From the NCBI RefSeq assembly GCF_030384885.1, contig NZ_CP128613.1: a stretch of 64,000 nt of DNA; one strand, written 5' to 3'. Numbering within the stretch: the first letter of the stretch is position 1; every line of letters starts with the position of its first letter. This DNA comes from Escherichia coli (GTDB lineage Bacteria > Pseudomonadota > Gammaproteobacteria > Enterobacterales > Enterobacteriaceae). Shown here in pieces: positions 3,001-6,000 of the stretch. Position numbers: made by a program.

Positions 3001-6000
3001 AGACATATACACCACGAAAAAAATTGGATATCAGAAATAAAATGACAATAATGCGGTGGATTATATAGGCATAAAAGATAAATGAGATAGTATTTTCATC
3101 GGTGCGATATTGAACATTGATTTAAATAATAGGTTTGGCTTTGTTGTTTTTATTGTGAATGATATTTAATTTATGAATATATTAAGAAGAAGCCTTGTTT
3201 GGTTGCCTTAAATCGACAAAAGGCATTGAGGCGCTTCTGTGTAGTCTCTGACCTTATCTTAATTATTAATAAATACTATTTATTCTTTGTTTGTATTCAT
3301 TGGGTTGATTATTAAGATGCCGTTCGTTGCTGTTGCAATCTGTTTGTCACCGTTAATTATTTGTTATCCACAGAGATATGGAATGCGATCTGCTGATGAT
3401 TAAAATTGAAAAAGTAATTAATAAAAATGACATTAAGGCATTTATCGCTTTTCCGTCATCACTTTATCCCGATGATCCAAACTGGATACCCCCTTTGTTC
3501 ATTGAACGCAGCGAGCATTTGTCGGCGAAGAATCCGGGGACGGACCATATTATCTGGCAGGCGTGGGTAGCAAAAAAAGCGGGGCAGATAGTCGGGCGGA
3601 TTACCGCGCAAATCGATACCTTGCACCGCGAGCGTTACGGTGACGATACCGGTCATTTTGGCATGATTGACGCCATTGATGATCCGCAGGTTTTTGCCGC
3701 TTTGTTTGGCGCAGCGGAAGCATGGTTGAAGTTACAAGGTGCCAGTATGATCAGCGGGCCTTTCAGCCTGAATATCAATCAGGAAAGCGGATTACTGATT
3801 GAAGGTTTCGACACTCCGCCCTGTGCGATGATGCCGCACGGTAAACCGTGGTATGCCGCGCATATTGAACAATTGGGTTATCACAAAGGTATTGATTTAC
3901 TGGCGTGGTGGATGCAACGAACCGATCTCACTTTCTCTCCGGCGCTAAAAAAACTGATGGATCAGGTACGCAAAAAGGTGACCATTCGTTGCATCAATCG
4001 TCAGCGGTTTGCTGAAGAGATGCAGATCCTGCGTGAGATTTTCAACTCTGGCTGGCAGCACAACTGGGGATTTGTGCCGTTTACCGAACATGAATTCGCT
4101 ACCATGGGCGATCAACTAAAGTATCTGGTACCGGACGATATGATCTACGTCGCTGAGATTGGTTCTGCACCCTGCGCGTTTATTGTCGGCTTGCCGAACA
4201 TCAACGAGGCGATTGCCGATCTGAACGGATCGCTCTTTCCCTTCGGCTGGGCAAAATTGCTGTGGCGCTTAAAAGTCAGCGGTGTGCGAACTGCGCGAGT
4301 GCCGCTGATGGGCGTGCGTGACGAGTATCAGTTCAGCCGCATCGGCCCGGTGATTGCGCTGTTATTGATTGAAGCCTTACGCGATCCGTTTGCTCGCCGG
4401 AAGATCGATGCGCTGGAAATGTCATGGATCCTCGAAACCAATACAGGCATGAATAACATGCTGGAACGCATTGGAGCGGAGCCGTACAAGCGTTACCGAT
4501 TGTATGAAAAGCAGATTTAATACCAGATCCCATTAAGCGCACGGACGGTCATTCGGGAGAGTGTATAGATGAACAGATTTAACATCAGATCCTATTAAGC
4601 GCAGGGGCGGTCCCCTCGCCCCTCAGGGAGAGGGTTAGGGTGAGGGGGAAAACTCGGCTCACATTCCCCCCTTGTTCATCTCCAGTGGCACCGCCGAGCG
4701 AATCAAATGGTGGCCTTCCAGTTCGATATCGTGGAGATTCTTTTTCACGGTCCGCACATGATCACGTGCGGCGCGCTGGGCGACGTGCGGCAGTCGCTGC
4801 AACACCGCGTTGTAGATCCGCGCATGTTGGCGATCGATCTGCTTTTTTTGCTGTGGTCGATGGTAGAGATTATTTACGCTGGCAAACACTGAATTAAACA
4901 TCAGATCGGTCAATGATTGCAGCGTAAAAACTAGCACCTGATTGTGGGAAGCCTGACAAATGGCAAGATGGAAAGCATGATCCAGCTGCGCGTGTTCGAT
5001 CAGCGAAATTTCTTTGTTGTTTTCACTGGCGGCGAGCATTTTTTCATAACAGCGGGTTATCAAAACAAAATCCGCCTGGGTTCCCAGCGTAGCTGCCAAC
5101 CTTGCCGATTCGCCTTCCAGCAATGCGCGAACGTCGAGTAGATCGTATAGCGTTCGCGGCTGTGTACTGAACAGATGGATCAGCGGGCTGGTGTCCTGCA
5201 CGCGATTAAGGCGTGCGACACGAGAATCGCGCCCCTGTGCTGTTTCAATAATCCCGCGTCCGCGCAGCACGGTCAGCCCTTCACGCAGTGCGGAACGCGA
5301 GAAGCCGAGCTTTTCACACAGTCGACGCTCCGAAGGAAGCGGCTGACCGACCTTCAGCACGCCGTCGATAATTAACCGTTCGATACTCTCTGCAACCACT
5401 TCGCAAATAGGGCGACGTTCATCTTTCATTCCCGGACCTCGTGCACAGGTAGGACCAATTTTTCTGTTCTTGATTCGCAAAACACGCACATCACGTAAGT
5501 GATTATGTTACATCAATTTAACATTAAGTTAACCAAGGCAAGGTCACAGAGCTGGAAAAAAAATGGTCTGACCGGTAGCTAAAGAGATAGACGAAAACGA
5601 AAAGCCCGCTTAATAACTGTTCACAGAAGCAGCGCGCAAAAATCAGCTGCCACACAACACAACAAAGCGAACCCTACTCATGAGCATCTTGTACGAAGAG
5701 CGTCTTGATGGCGCTTTACCCGATGTCGACCGTACATCGGTACTGATGGCACTGCGTGAGCATGTCCCTGGACTGGAGATCCTGCATACCGATGAGGAGA
5801 TCATTCCTTACGAGTGTGACGGGTTGAGCGCGTATCGTACGCGTCCATTACTGGTTGTTCTGCCTAAGCAGATGGAACAGGTGACGGCGATTCTCGCTGT
5901 CTGCCACCGTTTGCATGTACCGGTAGTGACCCGTGGCGCAGGCACCGGACTTTCTGGCGGTGCGCTGCCGCTGGAAAAAGGTGTGTTGTTGGTGATGGCG

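What the first reader, a model, noticed from the sequence alone, without database searches (positions are those of the whole stretch)
4501..4650. Imperfect direct repeat plus GC-rich palindrome between convergent yghO and glcC
The last codons of yghO and about 35 bp downstream are repeated about 62 bp later, followed by a GC-rich hairpin (cccctca-gggagagggttaggg-tgagggg). This could be a small tandem duplication scar, a BoxC-type repeat, or the footprint of the site where IS5 sits in K-12.
Basis: seen in the sequence. Interest (0 to 1): 0.25.

Follow-up and report, generated by a model that had tools for sequence, protein, structure and literature searches.

The report
BoxC repeat with decayed tandem copy
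The spacer between the convergent genes yghO and glcC holds one copy of BoxC, a known dispersed E. coli palindromic repeat, preceded by a decayed second copy of its left half and of the yghO stop region; this is ordinary repeat-associated variation with no sign of a dedicated function.

Summary
A 39-nt direct repeat (4512-4550 / 4574-4612, 87% identical, 62 nt apart) scores far above chance. A G+C-rich hairpin follows it at 4612-4647.

The palindrome is a copy of the known BoxC element, also called PIT or TMECO 'type A'. It is found at a median of 16 places per E. coli genome.

About 95% of complete E. coli genomes that carry yghO have no BoxC here, and the two stop codons lie 6 bp apart. About 190 genomes have one BoxC. 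The tandem form occurs in 1 of 5,426 complete genomes. It is nevertheless 100% identical in three independent draft assemblies, so it is not an assembly artefact.

The closest one-copy allele (RMDEC465 type) equals the window minus exactly 62 bp lying between two 10-bp repeats (ATTAAGCGCA). It is therefore most likely a deletion derivative of the tandem. The two copies differ mostly at sites that also vary among other Escherichia alleles, so the duplication is not fresh.

Copy 1 has lost the C-block and all but one of the G-runs, and it does not fold.

The IS5 idea is wrong: IS5 in K-12 abuts the 5' end of yghO, 1.1 kb away. No terminator, promoter or Rfam family was found. Interest is low.

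The parts
3378..4520 (+). yghO coding sequence (stop TAA at 4518-4520). Its last 9 nt belong to repeat copy 1.
   Evidence: ORF list. RefSeq annotation of the identical record NZ_CP027579.1.
4512..4573 (+). Repeat copy 1 (62-nt unit). It consists of the real yghO end CAGATTTAA, the spacer TACCAG, the BoxC left flank ATCCCATTAAGCGCACGGACGGTC, and a decayed BoxC core ATTC-GGGAGAG-TGTATAGATGAA. The C-block is missing and only one GGG run is left.
   Evidence: It does not fold (RNA -6.8 kcal/mol, z = +1.1). Outside this lineage, 4536-4580 matches nothing in 5,426 genomes, even at E <= 10.
4574..4612 (+). Repeat copy 2, left part. It consists of a pseudo yghO end CAGATTTAA, CATCAG, and the BoxC left flank ATCCTATTAAGCGCAGGGGCGGTC.
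   Evidence: It differs by 3 of 88 positions from the alleles of Escherichia sp. E1V33 and of RMDEC465.
4532..4541 (+). 10-bp direct repeat ATTAAGCGCA, first copy. With 4594-4603 it brackets the 62 bp that are missing in the RMDEC465-type allele.
   Evidence: the window minus any 62-bp frame starting at 4532-4542 reproduces L005, L058 and L059 exactly.
4594..4603 (+). 10-bp direct repeat ATTAAGCGCA, second copy.
4594..4668 (+). Intact BoxC element in its widest extent, as delimited by local alignment to K-12 BoxC copies.
   Evidence: Alignments to nine K-12 copies and the purK-ybcF copy span 4594/4599 to 4647-4668.
4613..4647 (+). BoxC/TMECO core: C-block CCCTCGCCCC 4613-4622, loop TCA, G-block GGGAGAGGG 4626-4634, loop TTA, G-block GGGTGAGGGG 4638-4647. 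4626-4646 equals the published 'cHPG1' G-quadruplex/hairpin motif.
   Evidence: Sequence. PMC4666352 Table 1. bioRxiv 10.1101/032615. Predicted hairpin.
4659..5429 (-). glcC coding sequence (stop codon TCA on the + strand at 4659-4661). Its last four codons (KGGM) lie in the 16 nt CTCACATTCCCCCCTT, which are present only in BoxC-bearing alleles.

Best explanation
4594-4668 is one intact copy of BoxC (also called PIT or TMECO type A). BoxC is a known, chromosomal, multi-copy intergenic repeat of E. coli whose single strands can form a hairpin, an intrastrand triplex or a G-quadruplex. It occupies a site between the convergent stop codons of yghO and glcC that is empty in most E. coli.

The direct repeat is a head-to-tail duplication of the unit 'yghO stop + 6-nt spacer + BoxC'. 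The upstream copy (4512-4573) keeps the real yghO stop and the BoxC left flank, but its core has decayed: the C-block is deleted and most G-runs are lost. The downstream copy keeps the intact BoxC and the glcC end.

The duplication is not fresh. Either it is old, or it was made by unequal, microhomology-level recombination between two diverged alleles. It is now being lost by deletion between short direct repeats; the RMDEC465-type allele is the tandem minus 62 bp between two ATTAAGCGCA repeats.

The most likely driver is inferred, not shown: replication stalling or slippage at the structure-prone BoxC, the instability already reported for this family. The element most likely has no dedicated function at this locus. 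Its main consequences are spacer-length polymorphism (6, 75-82 or 138 bp) and a remodelled GlcC C-terminal tail.
For: Identity as BoxC:
- The three-block core matches the published Table 1 of PMC4666352.
- It aligns with nine K-12 copies, flanks included.
- A 65-nt query finds 77,168 places in 5,408 of 5,426 genomes, median 16 per genome, with only 33 on plasmids.

Site polymorphism:
- K-12-type empty junction: 3,042 genomes.
- A second empty type: 1,285 genomes.
- EC958-type single BoxC: 185 genomes.
- Tandem: 1 complete genome.

The tandem is real: it is 100% identical in three independent draft assemblies, and the lineage's exact YghO protein is seen on 537 contigs.

Direction of change: the RMDEC465-type allele equals the window minus exactly 62 bp between 10-bp repeats, with otherwise perfect identity over 4203-5114. 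The 62 bp could not be produced by duplicating RMDEC465-type sequence. That type is also rarer, at 5 contigs.

The copies are not fresh:
- C4542 and A4545 in copy 1 match the BoxC family left-flank consensus GCAC.GGACGGTC and E. whittamii.
- The G/G state of copy 2, and its C4583 and T4593, match other Escherichia BoxC alleles.
- So 4 of the 5 non-coding differences are variants that already exist elsewhere.

It is a duplication rather than a second insertion: the repeat includes 15 nt of non-element DNA (CAGATTTAAYAYCAG), and single-BoxC versus empty alleles show no target-site duplication.

Instability of BoxC loci: PMC4666352.
Against: The origin of the tandem is not resolved.
- No single-copy allele with the decayed copy-1 core was found in 5,426 genomes or in metagenomes.
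- No second lineage carrying the tandem was found.
- Overall, copy 1 is not clearly closer to E. whittamii (85%) than to other alleles (87-92%).
- The unit boundary is ambiguous. 4558-4573 aligns about equally well as a decayed BoxC tail and as a decayed yghO end.
- The link between BoxC structure and this particular rearrangement is inferred from a published statistical association, not shown here.
- The published in vivo footprinting did not detect a stable triplex.
- Whether BoxC was inserted or deleted at this site cannot be polarised, because yghO lies next to glcC only within Escherichia and all three allele classes occur in several Escherichia species.
Confidence: 0.72

Rival explanations
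1. A recent replication-slippage duplication arose in this clone from an RMDEC465-like one-copy allele. It was followed by, or accompanied by, many local mutations, for example through error-prone repair synthesis at a stalled fork.
For: The flanks are perfectly identical to the RMDEC465 type over about 850 nt. All differences sit inside the 62-bp extra segment. BoxC can arrest DNA polymerase in vitro, according to work cited in PMC4666352.
Against: The 62 bp would need at least 8 substitutions and 2 indels relative to a clean duplicate, while 850 nt of flank have none. Four of the five non-coding differences coincide with states already present in other Escherichia alleles or in the BoxC family consensus; by chance this would happen roughly (1/3)^4 of the time. 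The tandem allele is much more frequent than the RMDEC465 type (537 versus 5 contigs).
Confidence: 0.1
2. There were two independent BoxC insertions side by side. The repeated CAGATTTAAYAYCAG would be a target-site duplication or a preferred target.
For: Both copies start with the same BoxC left flank. K-12 has five loci with two closely spaced BoxC copies (PMC4666352).
Against: The K-12 pairs are inverted and combine type A with type B. Here the copies are direct. Single-BoxC alleles show no target-site duplication against either empty allele. A 15-nt duplicated flank that includes the yghO stop codon is what a segmental duplication predicts. No mobility mechanism for BoxC is known.
Confidence: 0.04
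3. The BoxC hairpin, with or without the tandem, is a functional element for the convergent pair. It could be a bidirectional terminator or 3'-end RNA stabiliser, or a G-quadruplex/hairpin switch that tunes yghO or glcC.
For: It lies between two convergent stop codons, 12 nt from the glcC stop. The predicted RNA hairpin is stable, at -29.4 and -24.4 kcal/mol on the two strands. A regulatory switch has been proposed for this motif (bioRxiv 10.1101/032615).
Against: Neither strand has a U-tract after the stem, and the scan found no terminator-like site in the spacer. About 95% of genomes with yghO manage with a 6-bp spacer and no BoxC. Published tests found no promoter or terminator activity for PIT elements and no association with gene class or distance. 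Fold z-scores are only -1.5 to -2.2. There is no Rfam match.
Confidence: 0.1
4. It is a footprint or junction of IS5, which sits at yghO in K-12.
For: K-12 does carry IS5 next to yghO.
Against: IS5 abuts the 5' end of yghO, with homology to the window resuming at about 3418. That is 1.1 kb upstream of the repeat. The K-12 spacer is an ordinary BoxC-free allele shared by 3,042 genomes. Nothing in 4501-4680 resembles IS5.
Confidence: 0.01
5. It is an assembly artefact of a single genome.
For: Only 1 of 5,426 complete genomes carries it.
Against: Three independent draft assemblies (GCA_032648375.1, GCA_024634525.1 and GCA_018089345.1) are 100% identical across it. Diverged copies are not what mis-assembly produces.
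Confidence: 0.01

Closest known systems
BoxC, also called PIT (potential intrastrand triplex) element, TMECO (triplex motif of E. coli) type A 'mm', or HPG1 G-quadruplex/hairpin motif
   Same: The three-block core is the same: CCCTCGCCCC, a loop, GGG(G)AGAGGG, TTA, GGGTGAGGGG. The left flank GCGCA.GG.CGGTC and the right flank GAAAAC are shared. It is intergenic, chromosomal and present in many copies per genome. Its locus varies between strains.
   Different: This locus is not among the 23 K-12 copies. The second block is 9 nt, or begins with A instead of G. The element is preceded by a direct, decayed partial copy that includes flanking gene sequence; the sections I read of PMC4666352 describe deletions, mutated motifs and inverted A+B pairs, but no such arrangement.
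Short tandem duplications and deletions between short direct repeats (replication slippage / illegitimate recombination in E. coli)
   Same: The arrangement is head-to-tail. The one-copy relative differs by a clean 62-bp deletion bounded by 10-bp direct repeats.
   Different: The two copies are 13-20% diverged and carry variants seen in other alleles. The duplication itself is therefore not a recent slippage product.
REP/BIME and ERIC/IRU extragenic palindromes; MITEs
   Same: They are small, dispersed, structured intergenic repeats, often found between convergent genes and polymorphic for presence or absence.
   Different: The sequence family is different. Filled versus empty alleles show no terminal inverted repeats and no target-site duplication. 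No associated transposase is known for BoxC (my own knowledge: the motif is not associated with mobile elements).
Rho-independent bidirectional terminators between convergent genes
   Same: A G+C-rich stem-loop lies in a short convergent spacer.
   Different: There is no T/U tract on either strand and it was not detected by the scan. PIT elements showed no terminator activity in published tests.

Membership tests
BoxC / PIT / TMECO | Three-block core: a C-rich block, a short loop, a G-rich block, a TTA (type A) or CCG (type B) loop, and a second G-rich block | tested here: met
   4613-4647 is CCCTCGCCCC TCA GGGAGAGGG TTA GGGTGAGGGG. Compare the 13 'A mm' entries in Table 1 of PMC4666352. 4626-4646 is identical to cHPG1.
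BoxC / PIT / TMECO | Sequence similarity to bona fide K-12 copies beyond the core (the roughly 55-75-nt element) | tested here: met
   Local alignments to nine K-12 copies and the purK-ybcF copy span 4594/4599 to 4647-4668. The left-flank consensus is ..GCAC.GGACGGTC.
BoxC / PIT / TMECO | Dispersed, multi-copy, chromosomal | tested here: met
   77,168 places in 5,408 of 5,426 genomes, median 16 and range 1-29 per genome, with 33 on plasmids.
BoxC / PIT / TMECO | Intergenic location | tested here: met
   It lies between the yghO stop (4520) and the glcC stop (4659). The extended right flank overlaps the last glcC codons.
BoxC / PIT / TMECO | Forms a hairpin or intrastrand triplex as a single strand | tested here: inconclusive
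   A hairpin is predicted (DNA -14.2 kcal/mol, z = -2.2; RNA -29.4 kcal/mol, z = -1.5). Triplex formation cannot be computed with these tools. Published CD/NMR data show a triplex in vitro but not in vivo.
BoxC / PIT / TMECO (copy 1, 4512-4573) | Intact three-block core | tested here: not met
   The left flank is present and matches the consensus. The C-block is absent and only GGGAGAG remains; the rest is TGTATAGATGAA. It has no fold. Copy 1 is a remnant, not a member.
Tandem duplication | Two adjacent head-to-tail copies with similarity above chance, including non-element flank | tested here: met
   34 of 39 positions are identical at spacing 62. The score is 53 against a shuffle maximum of 26 (0 of 1000). 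The repeat includes the yghO stop and the spacer.
IS5 footprint | Position coincides with the IS5 insertion point in K-12 | tested here: not met
   IS5 abuts the yghO 5' end at about window 3417-3418.
MITE / transposon-like insertion | Terminal inverted repeats and a target-site duplication when filled and empty sites are compared | tested here: not met
   Empty alleles read ...CAG|CTAACTCAG|GTTCATC and ...CAG|TCACCCCTGCTTCATC. The filled allele reads ...CAG|ATCC...CTCGGC|TCACATTCC.... No duplication appears at the borders.
Intrinsic terminator | G+C-rich stem followed by a T-run | tested here: not met
   The scan finds none in 4521-4658 on either strand. The stem is followed by GAAAACTCGG on the + strand and ACCGCCCCTG on the - strand.
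Any Rfam RNA family | Covariance-model match | tested here: not met
   The best hits have E >= 1.7 and score far below the gathering thresholds.

The most novel reading that the evidence does not exclude
The tandem could be an ancient structure of the Escherichia yghO-glcC spacer. Different lineages would have resolved it independently by deletion at different crossover points. This would explain why the one-copy alleles (RMDEC465, CX12/EC958, E1V33, E. whittamii) look like different copy-1/copy-2 chimeras. It would also give a rare step-by-step record of how a BoxC locus is born, duplicated, decays and collapses, and of how this rewrites the C-terminal tail of a regulator (GlcC). A stronger version is that the diverged copy records the copying mechanism of BoxC itself, namely structure-induced template switching that carries flanking DNA along.
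Probability: 0.15. Interest if true: 0.4.

Novelty: new member of a known kind. Interest (0 to 1): 0.15.

Why it matters
It matters little beyond bookkeeping. The palindrome belongs to a repeat family known since the 1990s, whose function is still unknown and whose loci are already reported to be unstable. This locus adds a clean, well-resolved example. There are three or four allele classes shared across Escherichia species, a diverged partial tandem, and a one-step 62-bp deletion between 10-bp repeats. There is also a side effect on a coding sequence: the GlcC tail reads NLS, KQG, NKGGM, NPG, K or NKEGM depending on the allele. The spacer could serve as a lineage marker for the clone that carries it, or as a natural test bed for BoxC-associated instability.

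Tried and rejected
- Rfam scan of 4000-5200 at E <= 10 gave only chance-level hits.
- The promoter/terminator scan of 4300-4900 found nothing in the spacer.
- The IS5 idea is rejected by the K-12 annotation and alignment.
- A search for the copy-1 tail and junction (4536-4580) in 5,426 genomes, in distant mode at E <= 10, found only the source genome. It was therefore not templated from elsewhere in E. coli.
- Two metagenome scans, for the junction 25-mer and the copy-1 left-flank 22-mer, returned 0 hits.
- Outgroup polarisation of BoxC presence failed. yghO homologues outside Escherichia (Shimwellia, Citrobacter, Pluralibacter, Serratia, Hafnia and others) are not next to glcC. Within Escherichia all allele classes recur.
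- I tried to show that copy 1 is specifically E. whittamii-like. It shares C4531, C4542, A4545 and ..ACAG, but overall identity is not higher, so this is inconclusive.
- A supplement search of PMC4666352 for glcC or yghO found no mention. I could not tell whether this locus is among their 63 TMECO loci.
- The assembly-artefact idea is rejected.
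Full report
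**What is in the sequence.** yghO (3378-4520, + strand) and glcC (4659-5429, - strand) converge on a 138-bp spacer. The window is 100% identical to E. coli 2013C-4282, NZ_CP027579.1. 4512-4550 and 4574-4612 are 34 of 39 identical at a spacing of 62, and a second short piece (GGGAGAGTGT / GGGAGAGGGT) repeats at a spacing of 71. With one gap the similarity runs from 4497-4550 to 4558-4612. The ungapped score of 53 was reached by none of 1000 dinucleotide shuffles (maximum 26) and by none of 160 other tiles of the window (maximum 41). The hairpin exists too, with arms at 4612-4621 and 4638-4647.

**Identity of the palindrome.** 4613-4647 reads CCCTCGCCCC-TCA-GGGAGAGGG-TTA-GGGTGAGGGG. A full-text search for GGGTTAGGGTGAGGG led to Holder et al. 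2015 (PMC4666352). Their Table 1 lists 23 such motifs in K-12, called TMECO, formerly BoxC or PIT elements. Thirteen of these are the same 'type A mm' form. A preprint calls GGGAGAGGGTTAGGGTGAGGG 'cHPG1', a conserved G-quadruplex/hairpin motif; this string equals 4626-4646.

I fetched nine of the K-12 copies and one purK-ybcF copy. The window element aligns with them from 4594/4599 to 4647-4668, including a left flank with consensus GCAC.GGACGGTC. A 65-nt query finds 77,168 places in 5,408 of 5,426 complete E. coli genomes, median 16 per genome, almost all chromosomal. The 'BoxC-type repeat' reading is therefore correct, and the element is already known.

The paper reports no promoter or terminator activity and no gene-class association. 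It reports triplex formation in vitro but not detectably in vivo, and significantly increased sequence variability around these motifs.

**The locus is polymorphic.**
- In K-12-type genomes the two stop codons are 6 bp apart (TAA TACCAG CTA) and there is no BoxC. This junction occurs in 3,042 genomes.
- A second BoxC-free type (TGA TGGCAG TCA) occurs in 1,285 genomes.
- A single BoxC, giving a spacer of about 75 bp, occurs in 185 genomes of the EC958/ST131 type and in a few other variants (CX12, CX08, RMDEC465).
- The tandem form is in only 1 of 5,426 complete genomes.
- Together these account for about 4,516 of the 4,546 genomes that have the yghO 3' end.

Three independent draft assemblies carry the tandem with 100% identity over 2.6-3.5 kb. 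The lineage's exact YghO protein is recorded on 537 contigs. The allele is therefore real and belongs to a fairly common clone.

All allele classes recur in other Escherichia species:
- BoxC in Escherichia sp. E1V33, in the MOD1-EC6842 type, and in degenerate form in E. whittamii.
- The K-12 type in E. marmotae and MOD1-EC7003.
- The second empty type in the SCPM-O-B-8794 genome, a record titled E. coli that the collection keeps as its own species representative.

Outside Escherichia, yghO homologues are not next to glcC, so insertion versus deletion of BoxC cannot be polarised. The yghO-glcC region of the window is about 95% identical to most E. coli alleles, which is nearly as divergent as other Escherichia species are (93-94%).

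**Nature of the repeat.** Aligned as whole units, copy 1 (4512-4573) has four parts: the real yghO end, the spacer TACCAG, the BoxC left flank, and a decayed core (ATTC-GGGAGAG-TGTATAGATGAA). The C-block is missing, and of the four G-runs only one remains. Copy 1 does not fold. Copy 2 is a pseudo yghO end followed by an intact BoxC and the glcC end.

The repeat includes 15 nt that are not part of BoxC (CAGATTTAAYAYCAG). Single-BoxC alleles show no target-site duplication against either empty allele. This is therefore a segmental tandem duplication rather than two insertions.

**Age and direction.** The nearest one-copy allele (RMDEC465, also L058 and L059) equals the window with exactly 62 bp removed between two ATTAAGCGCA repeats (4532-4541 and 4594-4603). 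Identity is otherwise perfect from 4203 to 5114. Duplicating RMDEC465-type sequence could not produce those 62 bp, because they differ from a clean duplicate by at least 8 substitutions and 2 indels. The parsimonious direction is therefore tandem to single, by deletion between 10-bp direct repeats. The RMDEC465 type is also much rarer, at 5 contigs.

The differences between the copies are mostly pre-existing variants:
- C4542 and A4545 in copy 1 match the BoxC family consensus and E. whittamii.
- G4604, G4607, C4583 and T4593 in copy 2 match other Escherichia BoxC alleles.

I infer that the duplication is either old or was formed by unequal recombination between two diverged alleles. I could not decide between these. 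No single-copy allele with the copy-1 core was found, and copy 1 is not globally closer to E. whittamii.

**Mechanism and function.**
- Shown: membership in BoxC, the polymorphism, the tandem structure, and the 62-bp deletion relationship.
- Inferred: that BoxC's capacity to form secondary structure promoted the duplication and the later deletion through replication stalling or slippage. This is the mechanism proposed for the family's documented instability.
- A function as terminator or regulator is unlikely. There is no T-tract and no terminator-like or promoter-like site in the spacer, and no Rfam match. Fold z-scores are modest. About 95% of yghO-bearing genomes have no BoxC here, and published tests were negative.
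- One concrete consequence: the last glcC codons lie in sequence present only in BoxC alleles. GlcC therefore ends in NKGGM here, NLS in K-12, KQG in the second empty type, and other tails in other species.

**The IS5 idea.** In K-12-type genomes IS5 abuts the 5' end of yghO, and homology with the window begins at about 3418. That is 1.1 kb from the repeat. Nothing in the spacer relates to IS5.

Noticed in passing
window 4659-4680 and the homologous positions in L001, L008, L010, L012 and L050: The C-terminal tail of GlcC after ...PLEM differs by spacer allele. It is NLS* in the K-12 type, KQG* in the second empty type, NKGGM* in E. coli BoxC alleles, NKEGM* in E1V33, NPG* in the MOD1-EC6842 type and K* in E. 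whittamii. The protein is 254 or 256 aa in the annotated alleles. The junction rewrites the end of a regulator.
   Followed up: partly
window 3400-5800: The yghO-glcC region of this strain is only about 95% identical to K-12, EC958 and CX12. Other Escherichia species are about 93-94% identical. Strain 2017-02-2CC shares the yghO allele (98.5%) but has a completely different, BoxC-free spacer. This points to deep allele lineages and recombination breakpoints at the junction.
   Followed up: partly
window 4567-4575 and 4673-4681: A 9-nt inverted repeat, AGATGAACA / TGTTCATCT, brackets copy 2, BoxC and the glcC tail. The right arm is conserved glcC coding sequence (..EMN). By my own rough post-hoc estimate, chance expectation is about 0.01-0.02. 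It is unexplained.
   Followed up: no
window 1297-3015 and about 3417; L001 1-478: Upstream of yghO the window has a fatty acyl-AMP ligase gene. In K-12-type genomes IS5 replaces this region and the first roughly 40 nt of yghO, and PGAP still calls a YghO CDS that starts in the IS5 end.
   Followed up: partly
L042 (K-12 yjdP-phnP spacer) versus window 4661-4669: The K-12 BoxC copy next to phnP shares the 9-mer CACATTCCC with the window copy at a similar distance to the right of the core. Some BoxC copies may therefore share a longer right flank, forming a sub-family.
   Followed up: no
L033 (Macrococcus sp. DPC7161, a 430-bp contig at coverage 0.8): A 430-bp contig in a Macrococcus assembly encodes YghO at 97% identity to E. 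coli. This is almost certainly E. coli contamination of that assembly.
   Followed up: no
L034-L042 (NC_000913.3): The RefSeq K-12 record carries no repeat feature over any of the nine BoxC copies I fetched. The family is invisible in standard annotation.
   Followed up: no
and the PMC4666352 supplement: BoxC copy number varies widely between E. coli genomes. It ranged from 1 to 29 places in my search, with 9 in the source genome. In the paper, strains S88, SE15, UTI89 and UM146 have 1-2 motifs against 26 in SE11.
   Followed up: no
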